From the sequence record NC_134264.1: 64,000 nt of DNA; one strand, given 5' to 3'. Position numbers and translations under genes: made by a program. Under the pieces are notes generated by a model. It was not told the DNA's origin and did no database searches. It saw nothing but the letters and a program-made list of their open reading frames with translations. Positions within the stretch are counted from its first letter, which is position 1. Every line of letters starts with the position of its first letter. Positions 21,509-33,094 of this stretch are shown in pieces. Origin of the DNA: Escherichia phage Lindwurm.

Positions 21509-21531
21509 TAGTTACACGTAATCTTCGAACC

Positions 21532-21568: not shown

Positions 21569-21582
21569 ATTTAAGGCAAAAT

Positions 21583-21622: not shown

Positions 21623-21628
21623 GGTTCC

Positions 21629-21823
21629 TTAGAACCATATACTCTTGTTACAGCAACCACCCATACGGGAGGCCAATCTTGACTGAAAATCTACTCTAGG
21701 GGGCAGGATAAGAGTAGGCTTAAAGGCAAACGGATTGAACGCCGGTATTTGCGTAAACATTGCTGGAGAGCAACAACGTGCTACAGGCATTGGGCAGCAC
21801 GAAACAGGTTTTCTGCAACACAT
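21629..21823 (-). CDS. small Cys-rich protein
   Basis: 64 aa with CC pairs (MCCRKPVSCC...ARCC...GGCCNK); strong AAGGAG RBS. Confidence 0.5.
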   Translation of the reverse strand: MCCRKPVSCCPMPVARCCSPAMFTQIPAFNPFAFKPTLILPPRVDFQSRLASRMGGCCNKSIWF

Positions 21824-21832
21824 AATTTCTCC

Positions 21833-22249
21833 TTAGGAGTTATTACCACCATTTTGAGCTTTTGCAATTTGGCTTTGGCAGAAGCTATTAAACTTACCCA
21901 TAAGTGATACAAGCTGTTTCCCATCCTCTGTCTTTGCGAAGTCTTCGAAAAGGGCTAGTACTGCCTGTCCTTCCGCGGAAACCTGTGGTTGTTGGGTTTG
22001 TTGCTGAACTTGCTGCTGAGGCACCTGTTGCTGCATTTGTTGGGGCATTTGCGACTGCCCGCTCATTTGCTGCATCATTTGCATAGGACTCACACTTCCA
22101 GGGTTTTGCTGGAGTTGTTGCTGCATCTGTTGCGCTTCTGCTAAACGCTGTTGCAATTGTTGTAAGTAGGGGTTATCCAGACCCGGAATGGGCTGCTGGG
22201 AGCCCATACTTTGATTAAGTCCGTTATTTACAAAACCATATTTACTCAT
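21833..22249 (-). CDS. Gln-rich low-complexity protein
   Basis: 138 aa with long Q-rich tracts. Confidence 0.5.
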   Translation of the reverse strand: MSKYGFVNNGLNQSMGSQQPIPGLDNPYLQQLQQRLAEAQQMQQQLQQNPGSVSPMQMMQQMSGQSQMPQQMQQQVPQQQVQQQTQQPQVSAEGQAVLALFEDFAKTEDGKQLVSLMGKFNSFCQSQIAKAQNGGNNS

Positions 22250-22270
22250 AATGGGCTCCTCCCCTTAATA

Positions 22271-23257
22271 TTAAGCCGGCAGTTTAGCCTGCAGACCAGC
22301 CAGAGTCTGAGTGATAGTACCAAGACTTAAAGCGATTTGATTAATTACCTGACCGTTAGCACCGCTACCCGCAGCGATTGCTTCACGTAGGCGACACGCA
22401 TCTAACTCATCCTGGATACGCGCAGTAGTTACACCGGCGATCGCAGTCTGAAGTTCACAGCAACATTCAGCAATCTGACGTTCCAGAGAGTTCTGGTTAG
22501 CACACATCTGAGCCTGAACAGCGGCAAACTGGTTATTAGTTTGTAAAGTCTGCTGGAAAGCGATCTGTGCAGAATCAAACTTATCTTGTGCACGAGCTAT
22601 CTGATTAGCTGCGAAAGATTGATCAATCTGGCGAGAAAGATCGAACTGGCCCTGAATAACGTTGCGAGTTTCCTGGCAGATCTGATTAGACAGATTAGCA
22701 CCTGTACCATAGATCGTAGTTAGTACAGACTGAGTATCACGGCTCTGGTTTTGGGATGTCTGGCTAAAACCATTGTTAACTGCGCTTAAAACAGCTCCAG
22801 TGCCCTGGTTAGCTTCTGTACGAGTAGTGTTAATAGCTGCTAGAATACTAGCGGTATCTTGGTTCTGAAGTACTGCATCAACTGCGGTACCTTCACCAAC
22901 TACACCACGCCCACCGAATCCACCGAAACCACCGAATCCGCCTGTTAATAGAGCACCGATTAGGATAGCTCCGAATAGTCCCATACCTTCACCACCGAAA
23001 GCACCTGCGTTTGCTGGGTAACCACCCAGTAGGCCAGGAAAGCCACTAGTGAATACGTTTACTGGTTCTTGCATTTTATGTTTTCCATATTTATGACAAT
23101 GTTCATCATCGTCATCTTCTTCATCGTCGTGTTCGCGATGTTTCTCTTCGTAGGCTCTGACCTTCTCCCACTTTTTCTTATCTGATTCCTCGTGACGGTG
23201 CAGTTCTGCTGCAACGCTAGCGACGGTCTCAGGACTCTTAGCTACTTCTTCTGTCAT
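22271..23257 (-). CDS. acidic / Gly-rich / Gln-Asn-rich protein
   Basis: Start MTEEVAK at 23257 with AGGAGG RBS; DDEEDDDDE tract, GGFGGFGGFGGRG tract, Q/N-rich C-terminus. Confidence 0.55.
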   Translation of the reverse strand: MTEEVAKSPETVASVAAELHRHEESDKKKWEKVRAYEEKHREHDDEEDDDDEHCHKYGKHKMQEPVNVFTSGFPGLLGGYPANAGAFGGEGMGLFGAILIGALLTGGFGGFGGFGGRGVVGEGTAVDAVLQNQDTASILAAINTTRTEANQGTGAVLSAVNNGFSQTSQNQSRDTQSVLTTIYGTGANLSNQICQETRNVIQGQFDLSRQIDQSFAANQIARAQDKFDSAQIAFQQTLQTNNQFAAVQAQMCANQNSLERQIAECCCELQTAIAGVTTARIQDELDACRLREAIAAGSGANGQVINQIALSLGTITQTLAGLQAKLPA

Positions 23258-23464
23258 TTTTTGACACCTCCTAGTATATAGAAAATGTGTGTCTCTTTGA
23301 TCACTCATCCATAACATATACTTTACACTACCCCAGCGAAAATGTCAAGGGGTCTTTAAAAATTGCCCCCGGATTTTTAGTGGGGTCACAAATTTTGGTC
23401 CTCACTACTTATCTGCTACCCTTAAATGCCCTATGATTTTCCTCTAAAAAGTTAAAAAATTTAA

Positions 23465-23493
23465 TTGCTTGAATGCTATATTCTCTGTATAAT
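23465..23493 (+). promoter_or_regulatory. T5-type early promoter
   Basis: TTGCTT-17 bp-TATAAT. Confidence 0.65.
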
Positions 23494-23523
23494 ATATCTA
23501 TAAATTTGAGAGAGGAACCAAAT

Positions 23524-24042
23524 ATGAATGTTGATGAGCTAACACAGCACCTCTTATCTAGAGGATTTGATACAGATAAATATCATTGCTGGTTAAGTAC
23601 GGAAGGATGGCTAACAGTCCCGTTGTATGACTTCTCTGGGATGTTGAGGGGCTATCAAACTTATAATCCTTCTGCTCCAAAAGGTCATGGTAAGTGCCCC
23701 TTTGAAGCTAAATACTTTACTTATTCTACTACCCAGTGTGTATGGGGACTAGAAACTCTCAATGGAGATGAAAAAGTAGTATTGATTGCTGAATCTGTAT
23801 TTAAGGCAGTTGCGTTACATAACGCTGGTTATCCAGCCCTAGCAATGTTGGGTTCTTCTCCAGGAAAAGCGTTATTAAAGCAACTGAAATTACTACCTTT
23901 TAAATTGATAGCTGTCGGGGACAATGATCCTGCGGGTGAAAAATTTGCTAGAAAATTAAACGGCTTTGTTTCTCCTGTAGATGTAGATGAGATGTCTACC
24001 GAAAACTTGAAAAATTTTCTTGCTATGAAGCTAAATTTCTAA
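23524..24042 (+). CDS. TOPRIM-domain protein (DnaG-primase-like)
   Basis: VVLIAESVFKAVALHNAGYPALAMLGSS and LIAVGDNDPAGEKFARKL match TOPRIM E...DxD motifs. Confidence 0.5.
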   Translation: MNVDELTQHLLSRGFDTDKYHCWLSTEGWLTVPLYDFSGMLRGYQTYNPSAPKGHGKCPFEAKYFTYSTTQCVWGLETLNGDEKVVLIAESVFKAVALHNAGYPALAMLGSSPGKALLKQLKLLPFKLIAVGDNDPAGEKFARKLNGFVSPVDVDEMSTENLKNFLAMKLNF

Positions 24043-24048
24043 TATAAT
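24020..24048 (+). promoter_or_regulatory. T5-type promoter preceding tRNA genes
   Basis: TTGCTA-17 bp-TATAAT overlapping 3' end of preceding ORF. Confidence 0.55.
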
Positions 24049-24063
24049 ATATCTTATAAATTC

Positions 24064-24152
24064 GGAAGAATAGCATAACGGTATTGCAGCAGATTGCTAA
24101 TCTGTCGGTTTGAAATATAGCCTTGTGGGTTCGATTCCCACTTCTTCCGCCA
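24064..24152 (+). tRNA. tRNA-Ser (anticodon GCT)
   Basis: Acceptor GGAAGAA/TTCTTCC; T-arm GTGGG-TTCGATT-CCCAC; loop ttGCTaa; long variable arm; CCA. Confidence 0.8.
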
Positions 24153-24158
24153 GATTTT

Positions 24159-24236
24159 GGTTCTCAAGCTCATATGGTATGAGCACCCAGCTCATAACTG
24201 GAAGGTACGTAGGTTCGAATCCTCGGGGAGCCACCA
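24159..24236 (+). tRNA. tRNA-Met-like (anticodon CAT), imperfect T-stem
   Basis: Acceptor GGTTCTC/GGGAGCC; D-stem GCTC/GAGC; loop ctCATaa; T-stem has 2 mismatches; CCA. Confidence 0.5.
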
Positions 24237-24254
24237 ATTAAATAGAGGTCACAA

Positions 24255-24443
24255 ATGGATCTATATATAGTTTATGTTGTGTTTATTCAAGATAGAGAAT
24301 ACCCGGATGAATATAAAAAAGGATATAGGTTAGCCAGAGCTACCTCTGAAGCCCAAGCTATGGATAAAGTGGCAGATTATATGATTACGGTAGAAAACGT
24401 ACACTATATCGACTACCTTGAAGCCTCAAAAGTAATTGACTAA
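24255..24443 (+). CDS. hypothetical protein
   Basis: 62-aa ORF after tRNA pair. Confidence 0.4.
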   Translation: MDLYIVYVVFIQDREYPDEYKKGYRLARATSEAQAMDKVADYMITVENVHYIDYLEASKVID

Positions 24444-24452
24444 GGAGACTAT

Positions 24453-24638
24453 ATGTCCAAGTTTCAAGAACTCAAGCAAGAGCTAGAAGAGTGTGCCTGC
24501 CCTGAGTGTAGGGGAATTGGTGAAAGTTCTGATGCAGAAGCAGGAGATACTTTTTGCAATATCTGGGTTTGCCCAAATTGCAATGGTACAGGTATTAATC
24601 CTAACTGTGGTATTTCCCTAGATATTGAACGAGGATAA
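24453..24638 (+). CDS. small Cys-rich zinc-ribbon-like protein
   Basis: CACPEC...CNIWVCPNC pairs; AAGGAG RBS. Confidence 0.45.
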   Translation: MSKFQELKQELEECACPECRGIGESSDAEAGDTFCNIWVCPNCNGTGINPNCGISLDIERG

Positions 24639-24738
24639 TACCTGTGAAACTAAAAGATTACTATATTGGTTGGTTTGTGGGACTAGTAGTAGGATTTTCA
24701 CTAGGCTATAATATGTATCAACTAATAAACTGATTACA

Positions 24739-24815
24739 TGGGGGTGTAATCGAATTGGCATAGGTACTGGACTTAAAATTCAGGTTTTGTGGGTTCGAAT
24801 CCCACCACCCCTACC
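24739..24815 (+). tRNA. tRNA-like gene (anticodon TAA, weak D-arm)
   Basis: Acceptor GGGGGTG/CACCCCT; T-arm GTGGG-TTCGAAT-CCCAC; loop cTTAAaa; no clean D-stem; CCA. Confidence 0.5.
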
Positions 24816-24991
24816 AAATTAAGGAAATAAGATGTATAGACATCCACCTCCGCCAACACGTCGTTCTAGAGAAGTTATTCTCATGGAGTTGACTAAAAAC
24901 TTCAAGGCAACTCTTGAAGATAGAGATCTAGGCACGGATGAAGACATTGATTTTATTTGTAGACTATTAAAGATGAAACTGGAGAAACAAC

Positions 24992-25198
24992 ATGGCTAAT
25001 CCTGAAATTACCGCACAACGTTTCATGCTTAAAGGTATGATTGCTGAGGCGGGTTTAACTCAAGAGGTTGCAGATTTTCATAAGCAATTTCTTGATATTA
25101 TAACTCTAGCTAAAGAAACTGGAGAAAAAGAACATGGAGCGGCAATTATGGCTATATCTCTTATTAGTCTAGACTTGGCTGAAGAATCTGGAGTTTAG
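24992..25198 (+). CDS. hypothetical protein
   Basis: 68-aa ORF. Confidence 0.45.
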   Translation: MANPEITAQRFMLKGMIAEAGLTQEVADFHKQFLDIITLAKETGEKEHGAAIMAISLISLDLAEESGV

Positions 25199-25228
25199 AT
25201 CCTCCAAACAGAATTTTTAAAAATGTAC

Positions 25229-25258
25229 TTGCCTTTTGCTTTAAATTTCTGGTATAAT
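25229..25258 (+). promoter_or_regulatory. T5-type early promoter
   Basis: TTGCCT-18 bp-TATAAT. Confidence 0.55.
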
Positions 25259-25288
25259 AGTTATATAAATTGATGAAGGAGTTAACGA

Positions 25289-25564
25289 ATGCAAAATCGT
25301 GTTATAGCAGCTGGTATTGAAAGTGCAATCTGTAAATCCTGGGAAGGCTGGGAAGGTGAGATTGAATGGCTTTATTTCTACGATGTAGAGCTTCTGCCGG
25401 AAATTAAAGCTAAATGTGTTGAAGCTGGCATGTCTCCAGATGCAAGAGCTGATATTGATATTTCAATGTCTGAACTTAAAGGTCGTGTAATCACTGTTAG
25501 TGATGAGGGCGAAGAAGTTTTTGAACTTCCGTTCTCCTTAACTGTCACTCCTAAGTTCGACTAA
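25289..25564 (+). CDS. hypothetical protein
   Basis: 91-aa ORF with AAGGAG RBS. Confidence 0.45.
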   Translation: MQNRVIAAGIESAICKSWEGWEGEIEWLYFYDVELLPEIKAKCVEAGMSPDARADIDISMSELKGRVITVSDEGEEVFELPFSLTVTPKFD

Positions 25565-25600
25565 CTAATACAGCATTGGGCAAGTTCTTTAAAATTTGAC

Positions 25601-25629
25601 TTGCCCAATACTATAAAACTTGGTATAAT
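25601..25629 (+). promoter_or_regulatory. promoter preceding tRNA cluster
   Basis: TTGCCC-17 bp-TATAAT. Confidence 0.5.
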
Positions 25630-25762
25630 ATTTATCTAATTTGGAAAGTTCTTTTTAAGGTAGTTCTTACTTTAGCAGAGTAAATTTTTGGCAGATGGCC
25701 CCCACCATTTTACCGATAACTCCTAGTCAGTGCGGTAACACTGGCTACCTTAAAGAGAATTT

Positions 25763-25850
25763 GGGCGTTTATTCCGTAAGTGGTAGCGGAGGGGACTGTA
25801 AATCCCTGGTCATTGCGACTCGAGTGGTTCGACTCCATTAACGCCCACCA
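25763..25850 (+). tRNA. tRNA-Tyr (anticodon GTA)
   Basis: Acceptor GGGCGTT/AACGCCC; stem GGGGA/TCCCT; loop ctGTAaa; long variable arm; CCA. Confidence 0.8.
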
Positions 25851-25857
25851 ATTTAAT

Positions 25858-25932
25858 GCACCTATCGTCTAGCGGTTAGGACACCACTCTTTCACAGTGG
25901 GAACACGAGTTCGATCCTCGTTGGGTGTGCCA
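25858..25932 (+). tRNA. tRNA-Glu (anticodon TTC)
   Basis: T-arm ACGAG-TTCGATC-CTCGT; stem CCACT/AGTGG; loop ctTTCac; CCA. Confidence 0.8.
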
Positions 25933-25941
25933 ATTAATAAT

Positions 25942-26012
25942 TGGGGTACGCATAGGTTGCAAATGGGCCTCCAAAACCCATGAAAAGGTTTCGAATACCT
26001 TTACCCCTGCCA
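25942..26012 (+). tRNA. tRNA-Trp-like (anticodon CCA), compact
   Basis: T-arm AAGGT-TTCGAAT-ACCTT; loop ctCCAaa with C-A closing mismatch; 3-bp D-stem; CCA. Confidence 0.5.
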
Positions 26013-26018
26013 AAATTT

Positions 26019-26093
26019 GCACCTTTAGCTGAGATGGATTAGCGCTTGCCTGAAGAGCTTGAGAGGTTCGTTCGATTCGAACAGGGTGCACCA
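26019..26093 (+). tRNA. tRNA-Phe-like (anticodon GAA)
   Basis: Acceptor GCACCTT/AGGGTGC; D-stem GCTG/TAGC; T-arm GTTCG-TTCGATT-CGAAC; loop ctGAAga; two U-U in anticodon stem. Confidence 0.55.
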
Positions 26094-26110
26094 ATTTGAG
26101 GGAGCTGCTG

Positions 26111-26383
26111 ATGCATCCTGAAAACTTCTTTATTTACTGCGCTGATAAGTCGCTGAAACGTAGAATTAACAAAGTCTATCATTATCGTGCTAGTCAACAG
26201 CCTTATGTATATGCTTTTGATGATGATCACATTCCACTAGAACAATTATCTTGTGATTACATGATATTGAAGAACTTTGACGAGACAAAGATCTCAAGCG
26301 TTCATAATCGACAGAATCCATTAACGTGGAAATATAAGAAGAAAAAGAAAGGCATCAAATTTTTAAAAAATGTAGTTGCTTAG
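26111..26383 (+). CDS. hypothetical protein
   Basis: 90-aa ORF from ATG 26111 with GAGGGA RBS. Confidence 0.45.
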   Translation: MHPENFFIYCADKSLKRRINKVYHYRASQQPYVYAFDDDHIPLEQLSCDYMILKNFDETKISSVHNRQNPLTWKYKKKKKGIKFLKNVVA

Positions 26384-26404
26384 TTTCCAAAAGTTCTGTA
26401 TAAT
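26376..26404 (+). promoter_or_regulatory. T5-type promoter preceding tRNA genes
   Basis: TTGCTT-17 bp-TATAAT. Confidence 0.6.
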
Positions 26405-26452
26405 AATTACATAAATTGAACTGGAGAAGCAACATGATAGAATAAGATAAAT

Positions 26453-26528
26453 CGACCGTTGGCTGAATGGCTTAGGCGAAGGATTGCAAATCCTTTTTAT
26501 GTGAGTTCAAATCTCATGCGGTCGTCCA
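26453..26528 (+). tRNA. tRNA-Cys (anticodon GCA)
   Basis: Acceptor CGACCGT/GCGGTCG; stem AAGGA/TCCTT; loop ttGCAaa; T-arm GTGAG-TTCAAAT-CTCAT; CCA. Confidence 0.8.
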
Positions 26529-26536
26529 AATTTTTA

Positions 26537-26619
26537 GGGTCGTTAGCCAAGTGGTTTGGCGGCGGATTGTTAATCCGTGTCGAAAGACAACGTAGGTTCG
26601 AATCCTACACGGCCCGCCA
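26537..26619 (+). tRNA. tRNA-Asn (anticodon GTT) with 13-nt variable region
   Basis: Acceptor GGGTCGT/ACGGCCC; D-stem GCCA/TGGC; loop ttGTTaa; T-arm GTAGG-TTCGAAT-CCTAC; CCA. Confidence 0.6.
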
Positions 26620-26721
26620 AATTCTGTGTAGAGTTAAGTAAACCGGTAGCCAACCAGCTATCATTGCTGATATCGAATTCAGCCACAGATACCGTTTTCA
26701 TTAATAACTGAGGAAACAAGC

Positions 26722-26907
26722 ATGTCCAAGAATGTAATTGCGCAGCTAGAAGTTCATCGTGATAGCACTATCAACAATATTGAAGTTGAGAAGAAATACA
26801 TCGAAGAACTTAAACATGATATACTGGTAAGTCTCAACCGTCTTAACGTACGAAAAGAGTTTCTTAAGGAACTTAATGCAGCTATTGAAAAACTCAAAGC
26901 TGAGTAA
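26722..26907 (+). CDS. hypothetical protein
   Basis: 61-aa coiled-coil-like ORF with GAGGAAAC RBS. Confidence 0.45.
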   Translation: MSKNVIAQLEVHRDSTINNIEVEKKYIEELKHDILVSLNRLNVRKEFLKELNAAIEKLKAE

Positions 26908-26916
26908 ATGAATTAT

Positions 26917-26993
26917 GCGACCGGGGCTGGCTTGGTAATGGTACTCCCCTGTCACGGGAGGGAATGTGGGTTCAAATCCCATCGGTCGCGCCA
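26917..26993 (+). tRNA. tRNA-Asp (anticodon GTC)
   Basis: Acceptor GCGACCG/CGGTCGC; stem CTCCC/GGGAG; loop ctGTCac; T-arm GTGGG-TTCAAAT-CCCAT; CCA. Confidence 0.8.
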
Positions 26994-27019
26994 AACTAAA
27001 CTAGCACGAGAAATATGCT

Positions 27020-27367
27020 ATGATTAATGCTAAAGAAGAATTGTTACTTGCCCTAAAGAATACTAATTCTGAAGTTAAGTGTATTAAGATAGAATTCGGT
27101 TATTATGGTGACAAAGAAGTTTGGGTATTGCCCGTAGGTTATACAGAAAAAGATATTGAAGATTTTCTAAATAATCTAGACTTTAAATATGATTCTGGTT
27201 ATGGTGGGCAATTGCTTTATGGTAACGTGTGGTTTACTGATGGAACTTGGTTAGAACGTGGTGAATACGACGGTTCTGAGTGGTGGGAATATAAGGCTAC
27301 GCCAGCAATCCCAGAAGAATGCCGAACAATTAATGGTGAAGTAGATCGTACTTTACTATTAAATTAA
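27020..27367 (+). CDS. hypothetical protein
   Basis: 115-aa ORF. Confidence 0.5.
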   Translation: MINAKEELLLALKNTNSEVKCIKIEFGYYGDKEVWVLPVGYTEKDIEDFLNNLDFKYDSGYGGQLLYGNVWFTDGTWLERGEYDGSEWWEYKATPAIPEECRTINGEVDRTLLLN

Positions 27368-27489
27368 CAAAATTTCAGTGCAGAACACGGAGCTAGCAAT
27401 TCGGAAGTGCTGACTCATGATAAGCTGCCTATGTACTTGCGAAGCGGTCGTGTCCAAGACTCGGACTCTTGCACTGAAAACAATCAAAC

Positions 27490-27610
27490 ATTCTAGCGTG
27501 GTTGATGGGGAAACCAGCTTGGCGAGGGCAGAAGCTCGTTCGATTCGAGTGAAAGAATGGTTCTCGTAAGTCCGCACAAGTGATAACAGGTTCGAGTCCT
27601 GTCTAGAATG
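27490..27610 (+). ncRNA. oversized tRNA-like element (~121 nt)
   Basis: Perfect 7-bp acceptor ATTCTAG/CTAGAAT and T-arm ACAGG-TTCGAGT-CCTGT enclosing ~95 nt with an inner T-arm-like hairpin. Confidence 0.4.
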
Positions 27611-27769
27611 ACACTATAAAGTTTACTTATTATGTAGGTTCCGGTAGACCGGCGGGTCTATTCTGGCATTTAAGAGAGGTCTCGCAAGCCTCTTTGTCAG
27701 CAGTGGGGTTGGTAGCCTCCAGGTGGCCTACACAATAAGTAAATTTATTAAAAATTCATTTGCTATTCT

Positions 27770-27798
27770 GCTTAATTCTCTGTATAATATATCTTATA
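27770..27798 (+). promoter_or_regulatory. T5-type early promoter
   Basis: TTGCTA-17 bp-TATAAT. Confidence 0.6.
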
Positions 27799-27820
27799 AA
27801 GTGAAGAGAAGGAAAGCTAA

Positions 27821-28018
27821 ATGAAGAAAGTTTTATTACTATCCGTATTCCTACTTACTGGTTGTTTTAAATTTGACTCAACCATTAATAAAGAGTATGA
27901 ATTTGCTAAAAATTTCTGTGGCGGAGAGAGTAATATAAAGAATTTCTACATATATAGTACGATTCCTAGTACCGTTTATTGTGTAGACGGACGAATTATT
28001 AATATTCCTCCACAATAA
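27821..28018 (+). CDS. small lipoprotein
   Basis: MKKVLLLSVFLLTGC signal peptide with lipobox LTGC. Confidence 0.5.
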   Translation: MKKVLLLSVFLLTGCFKFDSTINKEYEFAKNFCGGESNIKNFYIYSTIPSTVYCVDGRIINIPPQ

Positions 28019-28027
28019 AAGAATTAA

Positions 28028-28103
28028 CAGTGCGTAGCGCAGTTGGTAGCGTGGGAGCCTTGGATGCTTCGGGTCGCAGGTTCGAGTCCTGCCGCACTGA
28101 CCA
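28028..28103 (+). tRNA. tRNA-Pro (anticodon TGG)
   Basis: Acceptor CAGTGCG/CGCACTG; T-arm GCAGG-TTCGAGT-CCTGC; loop ctTGGat; CCA. Confidence 0.8.
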
Positions 28104-28109
28104 AACAAT

Positions 28110-28187
28110 TGCGGGTTAGATCTCTGGTAGAGATCACTAGTCTCATAAGCTAGAAAGAGGTAGGTTCGATTCCTGCACCCGCTTCCA
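28110..28187 (+). tRNA. tRNA-Met/Ile2 (anticodon CAT)
   Basis: Stem CTAGT/GCTAG; loop ctCATaa; T-arm GTAGG-TTCGATT-CCTGC; first acceptor pair mismatched; CCA. Confidence 0.65.
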
Positions 28188-28207
28188 TTTTAATAGAGGA
28201 TTTCGAA

Positions 28208-28375
28208 ATGAAAGTATTTCGATTAGTAGTAAGTGACAAACGTTCAGGTAAGAATACATCAAAATCCTTACTTGCTCATTACGGTAAAAATTGGGATGAA
28301 GTAATGGTAGAGTTTAGTACTAATCACCCTTACTTAAAAGTCCACTCTATTAAAGAAGTGTATAATGGTTACTAA
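28208..28375 (+). CDS. small hypothetical protein
   Basis: 55-aa ORF between tRNAs, hand-translated, AGAGGA RBS. Confidence 0.4.
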   Translation: MKVFRLVVSDKRSGKNTSKSLLAHYGKNWDEVMVEFSTNHPYLKVHSIKEVYNGY

Positions 28376-28376
28376 T

Positions 28377-28455
28377 AGATCGCTAGCTCAATAGGTTTAG
28401 TAGCATCCGACTTTTAATCGGAAGGTTCTGGGTTCGAGTCCCAGGCGATCTACCA
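28377..28455 (+). tRNA. tRNA-Lys (anticodon TTT)
   Basis: Acceptor AGATCGC/GCGATCT; stem TCCGA/TCGGA; loop ctTTTaa; T-arm CTGGG-TTCGAGT-CCCAG; CCA. Confidence 0.8.
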
Positions 28456-28473
28456 ATTTCAAGAAAAATGCAG

Positions 28474-28502
28474 TTGCTTAATGCTTAATTTCTTGTTATA
28501 AT
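28474..28502 (+). promoter_or_regulatory. T5-type promoter driving ORF-free segment and tRNAs
   Basis: TTGCTT-17 bp-TATAAT. Confidence 0.6.
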
Positions 28503-28834
28503 ATTTATATAAATTGATGCGAAAATAGCTGCCTAGATATCAGGTGTATGACGTCTACACTAGCAGAGCTACCGAAAAAGAGATCCTCAGGATAAACGTC
28601 GTAGCAAAATTAGTCTGATATCCATCAATTTAGTTCACTAAGGTATTAGCTTGACCTAGGACTGGCTGCCAAAAAGCACGATCCCTACGATTCGGGAGAA
28701 GTTCTAGATTAGTCCACTAGATTCAGCGGCAACTGAATAGTGTATCGGGTTTGCGAGATGACGCGGTTCCTTCCGCTCGAAGCGAAGGTGCTGTAGTTAC
28801 GCCGAGCTAATAGCCTTAGTAAACTAAAGAATTT

Positions 28835-28908
28835 GGGGATATAGTTTAATGGTAGAACATCTGCTTTGCACGCAGAAGACGAGGGTTCAACTCCCTCTTT
28901 CTCCACCA
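28835..28908 (+). tRNA. tRNA-Ala (anticodon TGC)
   Basis: Stem TCTGC/GCAGA; loop ttTGCac; T-arm GAGGG-TTCAACT-CCCTC; one acceptor mismatch; CCA. Confidence 0.7.
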
Positions 28909-28913
28909 AATTT

Positions 28914-28998
28914 GGGGCTATGCTGGAACTGGTAGACAATACGGCCTTAGATTCCGTAGCTTAAATGCGTGGGAGTTCGAGTCTCCCTAGCCCCACCA
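28914..28998 (+). tRNA. tRNA-Leu (anticodon TAG)
   Basis: Acceptor GGGGCTA/TAGCCCC; loop ctTAGat; long variable arm; T-arm GGGAG-TTCGAGT-CTCCC; CCA. Confidence 0.75.
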
Positions 28999-29014
28999 AC
29001 TTATAGGGTAATGT

Positions 29015-29599
29015 ATGCAGTTTGTACCAATAAAAGATGCACCAGGGTATTTAGTAAATGAAACAGGGGATGTGTTATCTACATTTACTAATAAAATTTT
29101 ATCAAGATATATAGTTGATGGATACCCTGCTGTAAAATTACAGATAAATGGTAAGCAAACTTCGGTACTTATACACCGAATTATTTCTCATGTATTTGGG
29201 GACTTATATAATCTATTTGACCCTGAATTAGAAGTAGATCACAAGGATAGAGATAGGCTGAATCTATCTAAAGATAATCTTCAAGTTTTGTCAAAAATAG
29301 AACATCAGAAGAAAACTAATAAAGATAATGGATGGTCTGATAGTAGAGTACCTTGCCCCTTATGTGGAAATCTAATGCTTCAGAGATCAGTAACATGTAC
29401 AAATTGTAAGCCAAAACCTACAGGAAAGTTAATAAAACCAGAATTGTCCTTAGAAGACATAACTGAAAAGGTTTTATTAATGGGGTGGGTTAAGGCAGCT
29501 AAAGATCTAGAAGTATCAGAGTCCACTTTACGTAGACGATATACTAAACTAACCGGATTAAGCCCAAAAGTATTAACAGAACAACGGAAAAGCAAATAG
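29015..29599 (+). CDS. HNH homing endonuclease
   Basis: IKDAPGYLVNETGDV N-terminal motif; VDHKDRDRLNLSKDNLQVL...EH HNH core; C-terminal HTH-like segment. Confidence 0.7.
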   Translation: MQFVPIKDAPGYLVNETGDVLSTFTNKILSRYIVDGYPAVKLQINGKQTSVLIHRIISHVFGDLYNLFDPELEVDHKDRDRLNLSKDNLQVLSKIEHQKKTNKDNGWSDSRVPCPLCGNLMLQRSVTCTNCKPKPTGKLIKPELSLEDITEKVLLMGWVKAAKDLEVSESTLRRRYTKLTGLSPKVLTEQRKSK

Positions 29600-29679
29600 A
29601 CTGGTGACTAAACCCGATTGGAAATCGGTTGAGTGGTAGCAATACCGCCTTATGGGTTCAACTCCCATCTTTTCCGCCA
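29586..29679 (+). tRNA. tRNA-Ser (anticodon GGA)
   Basis: Acceptor GGAAAAG/CTTTTCC; stem CCGA/TCGG; loop ttGGAaa; long variable arm; T-arm ATGGG-TTCAACT-CCCAT; CCA. Confidence 0.7.
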
Positions 29680-29691
29680 AACAATTTATAC

Positions 29692-29786
29692 GGTAGGTCA
29701 ATCCAACGGCTGGCGCTGGACTCCGACTTGAAATCGGTTGATCGTAGTGATACGGTGTAAGGGTTCGATCCCCTTACCTACCTCCA
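29692..29786 (+). tRNA. tRNA-Ser (anticodon TGA)
   Basis: Acceptor GGTAGGT/ACCTACC; loop ctTGAaa; long variable arm; T-arm AAGGG-TTCGATC-CCCTT; CCA. Confidence 0.75.
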
Positions 29787-29791
29787 AATCT

Positions 29792-29923
29792 TGAAGTATG
29801 CCGGAATCGGTAGACGGGGCTGCCTAAAAGGTTTATAGAGAACATCCACTCTCTACAACATACCTCATAAAGCGGCTGAGATAAATGGTCTATCTCGTGA
29901 AGGTTCAAGTCCTTCTGCTTCTT
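29792..29923 (+). ncRNA. oversized tRNA-like element (~132 nt)
   Basis: Perfect T-arm GAAGG-TTCAAGT-CCTTC and 6/7-bp acceptor enclosing hairpins AGAG..CTCT and GAGATA..TATCTC; no CCA. Confidence 0.35.
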
Positions 29924-30152
29924 GATACACCTATGGCTCAAAGTGTAACGGTGCTATTTGATACTCTTAGTAAGACTTTCCCGACATGCGTTCGGGAGTA
30001 AGCTGCTAAGGCTAGAGTAGAAGAGTTTCGGAGAGCCGCCACAATTGAAAATTCGTACTCGTCTTGAGCTGCGTGCAATAGGAGATAACTTGATTAGTAT
30101 TCTAGAACATGCTAATTGAGGAAGGTTTCGCTAACCCTGCGAGTTTTCAATT

Positions 30153-30229
30153 GTGGCTATATCATAATTGGTTAATGATCCTGATTGTGAATCAGGCCTA
30201 TGTGGATTCGAATTCCACTAGCCACCCCA
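30153..30229 (+). tRNA. tRNA-His (anticodon GTG)
   Basis: Acceptor GTGGCTA/TAGCCAC; D-stem TCAT/ATGA; stem CCTGA/TCAGG; loop ttGTGaa; CCA. Confidence 0.8.
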
Positions 30230-30287
30230 AATTAACTTAAATAGGGAATAAAATATAGCTGATTTCTGCAAACAATGCTCCGTTGAT

Positions 30288-30452
30288 ATGTGGGGTAGAG
30301 ATACTGGTGATCTTTCTGGTTTGATTACAGAAGCTGAGGTCAAAGAAGGTTATGGTGCAGTTGTGATTTGCGAAGGATGCGGAGTTATTCGAGTAGATCA
30401 TGAAGGCAAACGTTTAGAAGAACAGGAAAACTTAGGAGAAACAAATGAGTAA
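30288..30452 (+). CDS. small hypothetical protein
   Basis: 54-aa hand-translated ORF; no clear RBS. Confidence 0.3.
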   Translation: MWGRDTGDLSGLITEAEVKEGYGAVVICEGCGVIRVDHEGKRLEEQENLGETNE

Positions 30453-30681
30453 TGCTTTAATTAGTGAAATTATGTTAACACGTCTTGCAGAACTGCAAAC
30501 TCTTCGAGATGAATCTCAGAATAACTTAGCGTACCATAAACAAATGGTAGATACTCTTACTACTCGTATTGATACTTACGAGCGTGATATTGCAGCATTA
30601 CAAGCTCTATTCTCTGTACCAGCACCAGATACGTTAGAACAGCCTGCTGTTTCTCAGCCAGTAGAAACAGCATCTAGTTAA
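30445..30681 (+). CDS. hypothetical protein
   Basis: 78-aa ORF with GGAGAAAC RBS. Confidence 0.45.
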   Translation: MSNALISEIMLTRLAELQTLRDESQNNLAYHKQMVDTLTTRIDTYERDIAALQALFSVPAPDTLEQPAVSQPVETASS

Positions 30682-30690
30682 TAGCATTCT

Positions 30691-30766
30691 TGGGATGTAG
30701 ATCAATTGGCAGATCGTCGGCCTCTGACTCCGAAGGTTCCACGTTCGATCCGTGGCATCCCAGCCA
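30691..30766 (+). tRNA. tRNA-Gln (anticodon CTG)
   Basis: Acceptor TGGGATG/CATCCCA; D-stem GATC/GATC; loop ctCTGac; T-arm CCACG-TTCGATC-CGTGG; CCA. Confidence 0.7.
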
Positions 30767-30772
30767 AACAAT

Positions 30773-30848
30773 TGGAGAGTAGTGTAACGGTTAGCACAAC
30801 GGCCTTTGACTCCGTTAATGGTAGGTTCGATTCCTCCTTCTCCAGCCA
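30773..30848 (+). tRNA. tRNA-Gln (anticodon TTG)
   Basis: Acceptor TGGAGAG/TTCTCCA; loop ctTTGac; T-loop TTCGATT; CCA. Confidence 0.7.
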
Positions 30849-30856
30849 AGTAATAA

Positions 30857-30932
30857 GCGGTTAAGCACACGGGTTGTGTCGCAGGCCTTCCAAGCCTAGC
30901 TGAGTAGGGTTCGATTCCCTCTAGCCGCTCCA
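30857..30932 (+). tRNA. tRNA-Gly (anticodon TCC)
   Basis: Acceptor GCGGTTA/TAGCCGC; stem AGGC/GCCT; loop ctTCCaa; T-loop TTCGATT; CCA. Confidence 0.65.
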
Positions 30933-30948
30933 ACTTTAAGGAAACATT

Positions 30949-31200
30949 ATGCACGTTTTTGAGTTTCGTAATAAAAGTACCGATAAACGAGTTATTGTTA
31001 TTGGAGAAACATACCGAGCATACGAACAAACTGACGGATCTGTTATACTGAATGATGAGAAAGGGGGTTTTAGCTTTTATCCAGAAGAACCTTATGAAGA
31101 GTTTCGAAAACAATTTAACCTAGACTGGAGAAAGCATTTAAACACTGTTGCTTCATCTGTAGTATTGCCAACTACCAGTACTGTGCTCTCTAATGGCTGA
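30949..31200 (+). CDS. hypothetical protein
   Basis: 83-aa ORF with AAGGAAAC RBS. Confidence 0.45.
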   Translation: MHVFEFRNKSTDKRVIVIGETYRAYEQTDGSVILNDEKGGFSFYPEEPYEEFRKQFNLDWRKHLNTVASSVVLPTTSTVLSNG

Positions 31201-31357
31201 TAACCTAAAAGTCAAGATCGATAAACAAAAGAAACGTGTAGAAGTAGAGATTGGTGAAGAACGTGTAGCCTTCACCTTTGAATTTCTACAACAAATGGCA
31301 ATGACAGTTATGACTGATAAGTCTCCTGTTATTGAAAAAGAAATCCCGTTGAAATAA
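31193..31357 (+). CDS. small hypothetical protein
   Basis: 54-aa hand-translated ORF, start overlapping stop of preceding gene. Confidence 0.35.
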   Translation: MADNLKVKIDKQKKRVEVEIGEERVAFTFEFLQQMAMTVMTDKSPVIEKEIPLK

Positions 31358-31365
31358 CGGGTTCT

Positions 31366-31452
31366 GCTGGGTTGGCAGAATGGTTGAATGCACCTGATTT
31401 GTAATCAGGAGGAGTAATCCCACTGCAGGTTCGAATCCTGTGCCCAGCACCA
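31366..31452 (+). tRNA. tRNA-Thr (anticodon TGT) with ~15-nt variable region
   Basis: Acceptor GCTGGGT/GCCCAGC; stem CCTGA/TCAGG; loop ttTGTaa; T-arm GCAGG-TTCGAAT-CCTGT; CCA. Confidence 0.6.
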
Positions 31453-31466
31453 ATTTAAGGACTAGT

Positions 31467-31634
31467 ATGTTTAAACTACTAGTAGTTATCTGGTATAGTC
31501 AATCAAACAGAGCTAATACCTCCCACGTTATAGACTTTAATACTAAAAACGAAGCTGAAAAAGCATACGCTAATTTAATAGAACGTAATAAAGAATCTCG
31601 TAGTATAGTTTATGAAGTGACTAAACTCTATTAA
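31467..31634 (+). CDS. small hypothetical protein
   Basis: 55-aa ORF from ATG 31467 with AAGGA RBS. Confidence 0.35.
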   Translation: MFKLLVVIWYSQSNRANTSHVIDFNTKNEAEKAYANLIERNKESRSIVYEVTKLY

Positions 31635-31642
31635 AAATTCAT

Positions 31643-31671
31643 TTGCTTTCTCTCTTATTTCTTGTTATAAT
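31643..31671 (+). promoter_or_regulatory. T5-type early promoter
   Basis: TTGCTT-17 bp-TATAAT. Confidence 0.65.
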
Positions 31672-31701
31672 ATTTATATAAATTAATGAGAGGGAAACCA
31701 A

Positions 31702-31995
31702 ATGAAACGTTATCTTTCTGTTGTGTTCCAAACTGGTGGTCAACGCTATACCTATGAATTTCCTAGCTCTTGGAAGATCAAAGAAGGTGATCAAGTAGTA
31801 GTGTTAACACCGCGTGAGGGTTTCAAGGTAGTAACGGTTAAGCAAGTATTTCCAAAAGAGCATGAACCAGCTAAAGGCATTCGCTATAAGATGATTCATG
31901 GTGTAGTTCGTCAAGTACCACGAGCGGAAGTCGAAATCAAAGTAGATAAAGATGGTAAACTTAAATATACCTCTTGCTTAGACGAGTTGCTATAA
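31702..31995 (+). CDS. hypothetical protein
   Basis: 97-aa ORF with GAGAGGGAAAC RBS. Confidence 0.5.
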   Translation: MKRYLSVVFQTGGQRYTYEFPSSWKIKEGDQVVVLTPREGFKVVTVKQVFPKEHEPAKGIRYKMIHGVVRQVPRAEVEIKVDKDGKLKYTSCLDELL

Positions 31996-32201
31996 TGAGG
32001 ATTACTTTCACAGAAAAGATCATGAGTAATGGTGTTATGATCATTACCGCATGGGATGGTAGTCAGTGGTGTAGTGTTTCAGGTATTAAGCCTGAAAAAC
32101 AAACACTAGAAAATATCTCAAAGATTAAGCGAATAATGGCAGAACGTGCACGACTTCCAGGTGCGCCTAGAAATGGCAAACGTTCTGCTGTAAAATGTTA
32201 A
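31995..32201 (+). CDS. hypothetical protein
   Basis: 68-aa ORF; ATG overlaps preceding stop (TAATG). Confidence 0.45.
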   Translation: MRITFTEKIMSNGVMIITAWDGSQWCSVSGIKPEKQTLENISKIKRIMAERARLPGAPRNGKRSAVKC

Positions 32202-32202
32202 T

Positions 32203-32279
32203 ACTTCGGTAGCTTAGCGATCTAAAGCACTCGGCTGATAACCGAGAGATCGGGGGTTTAAATCCCTCCCGGAGTACCA
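32203..32279 (+). tRNA. tRNA-Ile (anticodon GAT)
   Basis: Acceptor ACTTCGG/CCGGAGT; stem CTCGG/CCGAG; loop ctGATaa; T-arm GGGGG-TTTAAAT-CCCTC; CCA. Confidence 0.8.
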
Positions 32280-32375
32280 AATTTAGGAATTAAGACTATG
32301 CGTCCAGGAAAGTTTAAAAAAGCTAATTGGACTAAAGAGTATAAAGAATACTTACTTAGTCTAGTAAAACATAAT

Positions 32376-32451
32376 AGTTAGTTGGCAGAGCGGTTATGCA
32401 CCTCCTTCATACGGAGCGATTACAGTGGTTCAAATCCACTACTAACTACCA
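32376..32451 (+). tRNA. tRNA-Met (anticodon CAT)
   Basis: Acceptor AGTTAGT/ACTAACT; loop ttCATac; T-arm AGTGG-TTCAAAT-CCACT; CCA. Confidence 0.75.
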
Positions 32452-32488
32452 TTAAAATAGCTAGAGATAGCTAAATTTAGGAGCAGCT

Positions 32489-32683
32489 ATGTTAACAATT
32501 AAAATAATGTCAGCCAAGAATGGGGAACAGATTCATACAGGCAAAAGTGTAAGCTTTAATCCTAGAAATAAAAGATTGGCTATAGTTGGAGTAGACCAAG
32601 CCATCTTTTTAAAAGAAGATGAAGTAGCATATGTCATGAACCAAACTGGTAAGACAGTTTCCGTATACTATGGAAAAGTATAA
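32489..32683 (+). CDS. hypothetical protein
   Basis: 64-aa ORF with AGGAG RBS. Confidence 0.45.
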   Translation: MLTIKIMSAKNGEQIHTGKSVSFNPRNKRLAIVGVDQAIFLKEDEVAYVMNQTGKTVSVYYGKV

Positions 32684-32725
32684 AGAATAAAAAGCTGAGC
32701 CAAATTCTAACATCGGGGAGATCTA

Positions 32726-33094
32726 ATGAAAGCATATCAAAATCTTAAATCTGGCGTAATTAACCTTGTTCATGAAAATCAGATTATTCAGCTATACTCC
32801 GACAACGGTGAACTTAAACAGAAAGTTCTAGTTGAAGATCTAGAAGGTATCACACCGCAATTCGATCCTGAATCCTTCCGTGAAGTTAAGGTGGAAGTCG
32901 TCCCTCAAATCGAAGGTGGTCAGCACCTAAATGTCAATGTGTTAAGCCGTGATCAGCTTTTGGATGCGCAGAAACATCCTGAAAAATATCCTCAGTTGAC
33001 CATCCGTGTCTCTGGCTACGCTGTTCGATTTAATGCACTGACTCGTGAACAACAGAACGACGTTATTAGTCGTACATTTACTCAGGCAATGTAA
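32726..33094 (+). CDS. autonomous glycyl-radical cofactor (GrcA/YfiD-like)
   Basis: [11 protein letters not shown] and [27 protein letters not shown] match the GrcA glycyl-radical domain. Confidence 0.75.

What the first reader, a model, noticed from the sequence alone, without database searches (positions are those of the whole stretch)
29792..29923. Second oversized tRNA-like element
A perfect T-arm (GAAGG-TTCAAGT-CCTTC) and a 6/7-bp acceptor pairing enclose ~120 nt containing hairpins AGAG..CTCT and GAGATA..TATCTC, with no CCA. It sits directly after tRNA-Ser(TGA) and before another ~230 nt ORF-free structured stretch that includes a 14-bp long-range inverted repeat (GCCACAATTGAAAA / TTTTCAATTGTGGC) overlapping the start of tRNA-His.
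Basis: seen in the sequence. Interest (0 to 1): 0.5.

Follow-up and report, generated by a model that had tools for sequence, protein, structure and literature searches.

The report
Phage T5 tRNA-like RNA1 gene
This is the gene for "RNA1", a 132-base RNA of T5-like phages that GenBank already lists as tRNA-like with unknown function: a leucine-tRNA look-alike whose anticodon loop is replaced by a conserved 48-base arm.

Summary
Window 29792-29923 folds as a tRNA cloverleaf with a long variable arm. A 48-nt two-helix extension replaces the anticodon loop, and no CCA is encoded. On 30 distinct homologues from four groups of T5-like phages, 95% of pair cells are standard pairs, against 39-50% for slid controls. 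Fourteen of 36 pairs show double compensatory changes.

It is not new. GenBank records of T5, BF23 and Salmonella phage 5 annotate the same locus as "rna1 / RNA1, tRNA-like RNA with unknown functions".

The tRNA body is closest to tRNA-Leu. It is not an intron-containing tRNA, because no anticodon is conserved. The two added loops are almost invariant and vary less than the T-loop.

It sequesters the 5' end of tRNA-His, and the annotated RNA III ends lie in it with the overhangs expected of RNase III.

The function of RNA1 remains unknown. My best guess, at low confidence, is a non-decoding tRNA mimic. Architecturally similar oversized tRNA-Leu-like RNAs, not annotated in the one public isolate record I checked, occur in the tRNA arrays of other phages.

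The parts
29692..29786 (+). tRNA-Ser(UGA), the upstream neighbour, ending in an encoded CCA. RNA1 starts 5 nt later.
   Evidence: Rfam tRNA-clan hit at 29692-29782, 38.3 bits. Annotated tRNA-Ser (UCA) in T5, BF23 and phage 5. Missed by ARAGORN here.
29790..29934 (+). RNA1 as annotated in GenBank homologues (misc_RNA rna1, 144-145 nt). It includes a 2-nt leader and an 11-nt trailer around the tRNA-like core.
   Evidence: Gap-free alignment to AJ604531 with an offset of +26285. The same feature is annotated in AY692264 and NC_042564.
29792..29923 (+). tRNA-like core of RNA1, from the acceptor stem to the discriminator.
   Evidence: Rfam tRNA model, 25.0 bits. Own covariance model, 167 bits. Covariation.
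29801..29817 (+). D-arm CCGGAATCGGTAGACGG of tRNA-Leu type (3 base pairs plus G.A).
   Evidence: Nearly invariant in alignment A2. The same 19-nt D-arm pattern occurs in canonical tRNA-Leu genes L053, L056 and L061.
29819..29876 (+). Anticodon stem (29819-29823 with 29872-29876) enclosing the 48-nt extension 29824-29871. The extension holds a middle helix (29829-29832 with 29862-29865) and a distal hairpin (29836-29855).
   Evidence: Nine of the 15 pairs in these three helices show double compensatory changes.
29842..29849 (+). Distal loop ACAUCCAC, identical in 29 of 30 distinct homologues.
   Evidence: The single variant is one of three T5 records.
29878..29896 (+). Long variable arm GAGATA/TATCTC with loop AAUGGUC (29884-29890), identical in 29 of 30 homologues.
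29899..29915 (+). T-arm GAAGG-TTCAAGT-CCTTC.
29935..30041 (+). RNA I (context): a rod-like stable RNA with the ends 5'-GGCUC...GAGCC-GCCA-3', which resembles an acceptor end with CCA.
   Evidence: Mapped from rnaI of AJ604531. Fold.
30038..30057 (+). 5' arm of the 20-bp helix.
   Evidence: 99.5% of cells paired, and 6 pairs with double changes against 0-1 in slid controls.
30046..30151 (+). RNA III (context): the sequence enclosed by the 20-bp helix. Its interior is replaced or almost deleted in some relatives.
   Evidence: Mapped from rnaIII. Variants L005, L006, L024 and L029.
30138..30157 (+). 3' arm of the 20-bp helix. It covers U-1 and the first 5 nt of tRNA-His.
30152..30229 (+). tRNA-His(GUG). 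The GenBank homologue is annotated with one extra 5' nucleotide.
   Evidence: ARAGORN 30153-30229. Rfam 59.9 bits. Annotation.

Best explanation
The element is the gene for RNA1 of T5-like phages. RNA1 is a non-decoding, tRNA-shaped RNA under purifying selection, and it derives from a type-II tRNA-Leu. It keeps the acceptor stem, the D-arm, the T-arm, the long variable arm and the core tertiary positions (U8, A14, A15 with U48, G18 G19, G26 with U44). Its 7-nt anticodon loop is replaced by a 48-nt two-helix extension capped by an invariant 8-nt loop. No 3' CCA is encoded.

Inferred: it lies in the early tRNA transcription unit between tRNA-Ser and RNA I, RNA III and tRNA-His. The host tRNA-processing enzymes probably cut it out, with RNase P at the 5' side.

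Inferred, about 0.2 on its own: the mature RNA acts in trans as a tRNA mimic. Its tRNA-Leu-like body would dock on a protein that recognises tRNA shape, while the two invariant added loops give specificity. The most plausible role is as a decoy or antagonist in the conflict over tRNAs between phage and host.
For: Identity:
- The element is 95% identical to the stretch annotated 'rna1: RNA1, tRNA-like RNA with unknown functions' in AJ604531. The same feature, in the same gene order, is annotated in T5 st0 (AY692264) and BF23 (NC_042564).

Structure and selection:
- On 30 distinct sequences from Tequintavirus, Epseptimavirus, Sugarlandvirus and Pectobacterium phage DU_PP_V, 95.4% of pair cells are standard pairs, against 39-50% when the partners are slid.
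- Fourteen of 36 pairs have double compensatory changes, against 2-3 in slid controls.
- The added loops are identical in 29 of 30 sequences, while the T-loop has 8 variants.
- No reading frame is open in all variants.

tRNA-Leu ancestry:
- The best matches of my model outside the family are canonical tRNA-Leu genes: L053 at 60 bits, and this window's own tRNA-Leu(UAG) at 40.5 bits and tRNA-Leu(UAA) at 32.3 bits.
- The D-arm pattern occurs in ARAGORN-called tRNA-Leu genes.

Non-decoding:
- The 7 nt before the 3' strand of the anticodon stem differ between clades: UCAUAAA in 12 sequences, CUUAAAA in 9, CGAAAAC in 8 and UCGACGG in 1.
- No CCA is encoded, and the discriminator is U.

Co-transcription:
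- Promoter-like sites in the region are no more frequent than in shuffles (4 against 5.9 expected), and the terminator-like sites found are not convincing: one of the four is the element's own T-arm.
- Related records place promoter P13b upstream of the whole block.

Context for a role in conflict:
- T5 tRNA-Lys neutralises PARIS, and T5 tRNA-Tyr counters retron Eco7 (PMC11464382; PMC10644984).
- The viable T5-123 deletion (29191-32442) spans the RNA1 locus at 30430-30566 of AY587007. RNA1 is therefore accessory, like the tRNAs.
Against: No expression, end-mapping or binding data were accessible here. The GenBank annotation is my only evidence that the RNA exists in cells, and I could not read the primary papers behind it.

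The decoy role is pure inference and no partner is identified. Nothing in the phage early region is complementary to the invariant loops beyond chance. That neither supports nor excludes a protein partner.

The annotated RNA1 ends (2 nt before the acceptor and 11 nt after the discriminator) do not match a simple product of RNase P cleavage plus 3' trimming.
Confidence: 0.7

Rival explanations
1. It is an intron-containing tRNA-Leu gene. The 48-nt insert would be spliced out to give a decoding tRNA-Leu(UAA), as the JLBYU40 genome record annotates it.
For: NC_105514 annotates the homologue as a 134-nt tRNA-Leu(taa). In the T5/BF23 clade the 7 nt before the 3' strand of the anticodon stem read CUUAAAA, a canonical Leu(UAA) loop. 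The tRNA body is tRNA-Leu-like.
Against: - That loop reading exists in only 9 of 30 variants. The window itself has UCAUAAA.
- The insert is far too short for a group I intron, and nothing matched an intron family even at E<=10.
- To my knowledge bacteria lack the endonuclease that splices short tRNA introns in archaea and eukaryotes.
- The insert has covarying helices and an invariant loop, which is the opposite of a passive intron.
- No CCA is encoded, and the discriminator is U, whereas E. coli LeuRS requires A73 (my own knowledge).
- The curators of the T5, BF23 and phage 5 records list it as an RNA of 144-145 nt.
Confidence: 0.04
2. It is purely a cis-acting processing signal. A tRNA-shaped 'punctuation mark' would recruit RNase P to separate tRNA-Ser or the upstream mRNA from the RNA I, RNA III and tRNA-His block, and the excised RNA itself would have no function.
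For: It sits inside a polycistronic tRNA unit with no local promoter or terminator above chance. The acceptor and T-arm stack that RNase P needs is conserved. The neighbouring helix at tRNA-His shows that this operon uses structured processing signals.
Against: A punctuation role needs only the acceptor and T-arm. The strongest conservation is in the added distal loop and the variable-arm loop, each identical in 29 of 30 sequences and more conserved than the T-loop. The element also survives in Sugarlandvirus phages and in one Epseptimavirus group where the flanks are entirely different.
Confidence: 0.13
3. It is a decaying tRNA-Leu pseudogene with a chance insertion and has no function.
For: It scores below the Rfam tRNA threshold (25 against 29 bits), is missed by ARAGORN, lacks CCA, and has a U.U mismatch at the top of the acceptor stem. 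A deletion spanning it is viable.
Against: It is conserved in 491 phage records across four groups, with pairwise identity down to 62%. Helices are maintained by 14 pairs with double compensatory changes, and 38 of 60 unpaired columns are invariant.
Confidence: 0.02
4. It is a tRNA-shaped carrier that can be aminoacylated. After 3' trimming and CCA addition it would be charged, for example with leucine, and would donate the amino acid outside ribosomal decoding.
For: The tRNA-Leu-like core is intact. LeuRS does not read the anticodon (my own knowledge). The Klebsiella-phage variants and the jumbo-phage relative L049 have an A discriminator. T4 has tRNAs without an encoded CCA (my own knowledge).
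Against: The discriminator is U in 26 of 30 variants, including this window. The acceptor stem is weak (U.U and G.U). The conserved trailer UGAUA argues against simple trimming back to the discriminator.
Confidence: 0.05

Closest known systems
RNA1 (rna1) of bacteriophages T5, BF23 and Salmonella phage 5 (GenBank AY692264, NC_042564/AJ604530, AJ604531)
   Same: It is the same gene. Identity is 95% with the phage 5 copy, and the T5 and BF23 copies score 162-163 bits against my covariance model. The position is the same (tRNA-Ser, then RNA1, RNA I, RNA III, tRNA-His) and the architecture is the same.
   Different: In the window RNA1 follows tRNA-Ser(UGA) after 5 nt. T5, BF23 and phage 5 have a 57-codon ORF (trn 2.14) in between. 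The helices differ by compensatory substitutions.
Bacteriophage T4 species 1 and species 2 RNAs (rnaC, rnaD)
   Same: They are stable small RNAs of 119-139 nt encoded at the end of a phage tRNA cluster. Their function is unknown after 50 years (PMC3014915, PMC9697503). rnaC has a T-arm, a hairpin resembling a variable arm and a long hairpin.
   Different: No homology was detected: my RNA1 model finds nothing in the T4 region at E<=10. rnaC lacks the D-arm. rnaD does not fold better than shuffled sequence (z -0.83).
Canonical type-II tRNA-Leu
   Same: The D-arm sequence, T-loop UUCAAGU, long variable arm, A15 with U48 and G26 with U44 are shared. The best matches of the RNA1 model outside the family are tRNA-Leu genes.
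   Different: RNA1 has a 48-nt structured arm in place of the 7-nt anticodon loop, no conserved anticodon, no CCA and a U discriminator. It falls below the Rfam tRNA threshold.
Bacterial Y-RNA-like YrlA and other tRNA mimics (mascRNA, plant-virus tRNA-like 3' ends)
   Same: These are non-decoding RNAs that copy tRNA shape to engage tRNA-processing or tRNA-binding proteins (my own knowledge).
   Different: No Rfam match reached significance (mascRNA 14.5 bits and Tymo_tRNA-like 14.1 bits lie on tRNA-Ser, not on RNA1). YrlA has the permuted topology, with its ends at the anticodon-stem side. RNA1 keeps the normal tRNA topology.

Membership tests
T5-group RNA1 (rna1) | Sequence homology to the annotated rna1 feature | tested here: met
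   95% identity over 144 nt to the rna1 feature of AJ604531. The annotated T5 and BF23 rna1 loci score 162-163 bits against the model built on the family, and the window scores 167 bits.
T5-group RNA1 (rna1) | Synteny: after tRNA-Ser(UCA) and before RNA I, RNA III and tRNA-His | tested here: met
   The window aligns without gaps to AJ604531 from RNA1 through tRNA-His.
T5-group RNA1 (rna1) | Exists as a stable RNA of about 145 nt in infected cells | not testable with these tools
   Only the GenBank annotation is available. The primary papers are not in the held library.
Canonical tRNA (Rfam RF00005) | Cloverleaf with acceptor stem, D-arm, anticodon stem and T-arm | tested here: met
   The Rfam alignment covers model positions 1-71. 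Covariation supports every helix that varies.
Canonical tRNA (Rfam RF00005) | Score at or above the curated threshold, and detection by a tRNA finder | tested here: not met
   25.0 bits against a gathering score of 29. There is no ARAGORN call.
Canonical tRNA (Rfam RF00005) | 7-nt anticodon loop with U33 and a conserved anticodon | tested here: not met
   48 nt lie between the stem strands, and no triplet is conserved across clades.
Canonical tRNA (Rfam RF00005) | 3' CCA (encoded in the three tRNAs read in this stretch: Ser-GGA, Ser-UGA, His) | tested here: not met
   Discriminator U followed by GAUA. Addition of CCA after transcription cannot be excluded.
tRNA gene with a group I intron | Insert in the anticodon loop with a group I core (about 200 nt or more) | tested here: not met
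   The insert is 48 nt, and no intron family matched at E<=10.
T4 rnaC/rnaD family | Detectable sequence or structure homology to T4 species 1 or species 2 RNA | tested here: not met
   Model R1 gave no hit in L065 (T4 66000-76000) at E<=10. The resemblance is in architecture and genomic context only.
tmRNA | tRNA-like domain plus a tag-peptide reading frame | tested here: not met
   ARAGORN found no tmRNA and Rfam gave no tmRNA hit.

The most novel reading that the evidence does not exclude
RNA1 may be one member of a broad, largely unannotated class of phage RNAs. These would be type-II tRNA-Leu bodies whose anticodon loop has been replaced by a structured, sequence-conserved arm, encoded inside phage tRNA arrays.

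Examples are T5-like phages, a 276-kb jumbo-phage contig with an RNA1-like arm, and a separate family of about 160 nt in cyanophage S-CRM01 and large IMG/VR contigs.

The class would act as a tRNA-shaped decoy or adaptor against host systems that target or sense tRNA. This would extend the known anti-defence role of phage tRNAs to non-decoding mimics.
Probability: 0.15. Interest if true: 0.7.

Novelty: already known. Interest (0 to 1): 0.3.

Why it matters
The element has been annotated since the 2004-era GenBank records of T5, BF23 and phage 5, so finding it again is not a discovery. Three points remain useful.

- **Annotation.** Most of the rows sampled from the 491 matching records leave it unannotated, call it a hypothetical protein, or in one case call it tRNA-Leu(taa).
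- **Evidence of function.** The covariation analysis shows it is a selected RNA whose most constrained parts are the two loops that a tRNA does not have. That argues for a specific partner.
- **Timing.** T5 tRNAs are now known to neutralise defence systems that target tRNA. This makes RNA1, and analogous RNAs in other phages, reasonable candidates for a non-decoding role in the same conflict.

The function of such RNAs has been open since T4 species 1 and 2 RNAs were described.

Tried and rejected
- **Antisense targets.** I looked for targets of the two invariant loops. The window holds only exact 8-mers. RNAduplex over 19000-33000 gave a best energy of -14.4 kcal/mol, against a mean of -16.9 for shuffled queries. 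Nothing exceeds chance.
- **Kissing interaction.** I considered by eye a loop-loop contact between the distal and variable loops, or variable loop to D-loop pairing. At most 3-5 bp are possible and none covary; the Klebsiella-phage D-loop change is not compensated. Rejected.
- **Protein coding.** The minus-strand 55-codon ORF 29774-29941 is open in only 12 of 30 variants, and no frame is open in all. Rejected.
- **Metagenome scan.** The loop pattern was too loose. Of the 80 contigs searched with the model, one gave a true RNA1 (L125, human gut).
- **Bacterial and archaeal genomes.** A stricter pattern found 0 matches in the GTDB species genomes, so this is not a host gene.
- **Rfam.** Nothing reaches the gathering score at the element, and no family other than tRNA overlaps it even at E<=10.
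- **AY587007 (T5, Wang et al.).** It carries no RNA annotation here.
- **Primary literature.** The Glukhov 2018 paper on T5 deletions is not in the library. No paper in the library discusses the function of T5 RNA1.
- **RNA2.** The element near 27490 is not hit by the RNA1 model, so the two oversized elements show no detectable homology to each other.

Full report
**1. The observation**

- The 7-position acceptor pairing is 29792-29798 with 29916-29922. It has U.U at the top, five Watson-Crick pairs and one G.U.
- The T-arm GAAGG/TTCAAGT/CCTTC lies at 29899-29915.
- A hairpin TAGAGA/TCTCTA lies at 29836-29855.
- A hairpin GAGATA/TATCTC lies at 29878-29896.
- The discriminator U (29923) is followed by GAU rather than CCA. 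The neighbouring tRNA-Ser and tRNA-His genes do encode CCA.

ARAGORN does not call the element, and Rfam has nothing there at the gathering score. In a permissive Rfam search the general tRNA model aligns end to end with exactly 29792-29923 at 25.0 bits (threshold 29, E 0.009). That alignment has a 45-nt insertion in the anticodon loop and a long variable arm. The minimum-free-energy fold is the same cloverleaf, at -38.5 kcal/mol and z = -2.75 against shuffles.

**2. It is already annotated**

BLAST against phage genomes finds the element in 491 records. They are mostly Salmonella, Escherichia and Klebsiella phages, with a few from Citrobacter, Shigella, Yersinia and Pectobacterium.

One record, AJ604531 (Salmonella phage 5, tRNA gene region), annotates the matching stretch as misc_RNA rna1, 'RNA1, tRNA-like RNA with unknown functions'. 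It is followed by rnaI ('stable RNA with unknown functions'), rnaIII and tRNA-His. T5 st0 (AY692264) and BF23 (NC_042564) carry the same four features in the same order.

The window aligns to AJ604531 without gaps from RNA1 through tRNA-His. The features therefore map as follows:
- RNA1: 29790-29934
- RNA I: 29935-30041
- RNA III: 30046-30151
- tRNA-His: 30152-30229

Most of the other records sampled in the BLAST listings leave the locus blank or lay a hypothetical protein over it. One record, JLBYU40, calls it a 134-nt tRNA-Leu(taa).

**3. The structure is under selection**

I collected 32 copies, 30 of them distinct, with pairwise identity from 62 to 99%. They come from GenBank phages and IMG/VR contigs and cover four groups:
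- Tequintavirus
- Epseptimavirus
- Klebsiella phages of genus Sugarlandvirus
- Pectobacterium phage DU_PP_V

I then counted pairs for a cloverleaf with an extended anticodon arm, written by hand on the alignment.
- 95.4% of cells form standard pairs, against 39-50% when the 3' partners are slid by 1-3 columns.
- 14 of 36 pairs show changes on both sides, against 2-3 in slid controls.
- No shuffle out of 500 reached the observed covariation score.
- Double changes occur in the acceptor stem, the anticodon stem, both helices of the extension and the variable arm.
- RNAalifold independently predicted essentially the same fold on nine sequences.

No reading frame is open in all variants, and the minus-strand ORF that is open in the window is open in only 12 of 30.

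**4. What kind of RNA it is**

The core positions that build the tRNA L-shape are invariant in the alignment: U8, A14, A15 with U48, G18 G19, and G26 with U44.

A covariance model built from the family finds canonical tRNA-Leu genes as its best matches outside the family:
- a viral-contig tRNA-Leu(CAG), 60 bits
- this window's own tRNA-Leu(UAG), 40.5 bits
- this window's own tRNA-Leu(UAA), 32.3 bits

The 19-nt D-arm pattern occurs in three ARAGORN-called tRNA-Leu genes. RNA1 therefore descends from a type-II tRNA-Leu.

It is not a tRNA-Leu with an intron, for these reasons:
- The 7 nt that would form the anticodon loop differ between clades: UCAUAAA in 12 sequences, CUUAAAA in 9, CGAAAAC in 8 and UCGACGG in 1.
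- The insert is far too short for a group I intron, and no intron family matches it.
- The insert is the most constrained part of the molecule. Its terminal loop ACAUCCAC and the variable-arm loop AAUGGUC are each identical in 29 of 30 sequences, while the T-loop has eight variants.
- The one distal-loop variant is a single T5 record contradicted by two other T5 records.

**5. Surroundings**

- On 22 sequences it is 99.5% paired, and 6 pairs have double changes against 0-1 in slid controls.
- It persists where the interior of RNA III is replaced (L005, L006) or almost deleted (L024, L029).
- It pairs U-1 and the first five bases of tRNA-His with the 3' end of RNA I and the 5' end of RNA III. 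In the predicted precursor fold the tRNA-His acceptor stem therefore cannot form.

The annotated RNA III ends (30046 and 30151) lie inside this helix, with 2-nt 3' overhangs on both strands. That is the geometry of an RNase III cut. This is my inference from coordinates and was not tested.

RNA I begins GGCUC and ends GAGCC-GCCA, which resembles an acceptor end carrying CCA.

Promoter-like sites near the element are no more frequent than in shuffles, and no convincing terminator lies between the genes. This fits co-transcription from the upstream promoter P13b annotated in relatives.

**6. Function**

No paper available here addresses the function of T5 RNA1. The closest analogues, T4 RNA C and RNA D, are also of unknown function (PMC3014915, PMC9697503), and my model detects no homology to them.

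The viable mutant T5-123 lacks positions 29191-32442 (PMC11464382). That interval spans RNA1 at 30430-30566 of AY587007, assuming the same coordinate frame. RNA1 is therefore dispensable on laboratory hosts, as the tRNAs are.

The loops have no complement beyond chance in the phage early region. The motif is absent from 185,579 bacterial and archaeal species genomes.

My preferred reading is a non-decoding tRNA mimic that uses its tRNA-Leu body plus two invariant loops to bind a specific partner. The partner is probably a protein, plausibly one involved in the tRNA-centred phage-host conflict in which T5 tRNA-Lys and tRNA-Tyr already act. The decoy step is inference only, at about 0.2.

**7. 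Beyond T5**

The D-arm scan of IMG/VR also returned oversized tRNA-like elements inside the tRNA arrays of unrelated large contigs.
- L049, from a 276-kb contig, has the same arm layout as RNA1 and scores 50.6 bits.
- A separate family of about 160 nt (L045, L048, L054, L055, L059, L062, L063, L064 and cyanophage S-CRM01) has 28 of 44 predicted pairs with compensatory changes.
- The seven members included in the Rfam scan have no match there at the gathering score, and ARAGORN calls none of them. The S-CRM01 copy is unannotated in that genome record.

Whether these elements share ancestry or function with RNA1 is open.

**8. Verdict**

The element is the already annotated RNA1 of T5-like phages, so novelty is 'already known'. 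Its function is still unknown.

Noticed in passing
window 30038-30057 with 30138-30157: The inverted repeat is a covarying 20-bp helix that sequesters U-1 and the first 5 nt of tRNA-His. It survives replacement or near-deletion of the RNA III interior. The annotated RNA III ends (30046, 30151) sit in it with 2-nt 3' overhangs, as expected for RNase III cleavage.
   Followed up: yes
window 29935-30041: RNA I, mapped from GenBank homologues, has paired termini 5'-GGCUC...GAGCC followed by single-stranded GCCA. This is an acceptor-like end with CCA on a rod-shaped RNA that has no T-arm.
   Followed up: partly
window 29692-29786: ARAGORN does not call tRNA-Ser(UGA) in this window. It does call the homologues in L002 and L035. 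One relative's record labels its copy a tRNA pseudogene (UTK0009).
   Followed up: partly
L045:1666-1827, L048:2482-2646, L054:880-1043, L055:8202-8365, L059:5030-5192, L062:3641-3804, L063:13876-14057, L064:3961-4124, L192 (S-CRM01) about 1483-1650: A family of tRNA-Leu-like RNAs of about 160 nt has an expanded anticodon arm and a conserved variable-arm loop. Its members lie inside the tRNA arrays of cyanophage S-CRM01 and of large IMG/VR contigs. 28 of 44 predicted pairs show compensatory changes. The seven members scanned have no Rfam match at the gathering score and no ARAGORN call, and the S-CRM01 copy is not annotated.
   Followed up: partly
L049:612-739 (IMG/VR contig of 276 kb): An RNA1-like element has the same arm layout: anticodon stem, GGU/ACC helix, distal hairpin. 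Its T-arm and acceptor 3' strand match the Klebsiella-phage RNA1, and its discriminator is A. It scores 50.6 bits against the RNA1 model.
   Followed up: partly
window about 27490-27612 and 27620-27730: The first oversized element corresponds to annotated RNA2 (tRNA-like). The RNA1 model does not hit it, so no homology between the two is detectable. By synteny, the structured stretch just downstream probably corresponds to annotated RNA IV.
   Followed up: no
L002:707-840 (NC_105514, phage JLBYU40) and several records: Public records mis-annotate the RNA1 locus. JLBYU40 calls it a 134-nt tRNA-Leu(taa). Others lay hypothetical-protein CDSs over RNA1 or RNA I.
   Followed up: partly
window 29787-29791 compared with L001:3326-3499: The 57-codon ORF trn 2.14 lies between tRNA-Ser1 and RNA1 in T5, BF23 and phage 5. 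It is absent from the window, where RNA1 starts 5 nt after the tRNA-Ser CCA. The leader UCUUG is conserved in both contexts.
   Followed up: partly
window 29015-29599: A 194-codon ORF matches in size and position the HNH homing endonuclease of T5 (T5p062). Its last 14 nt overlap the start of tRNA-Ser(GGA).
   Followed up: no
L063:11234-11702: A GOLLD RNA (168.5 bits, above the Rfam threshold) with an embedded tRNA lies in the same viral contig as one of the oversized tRNA-like elements.
   Followed up: no
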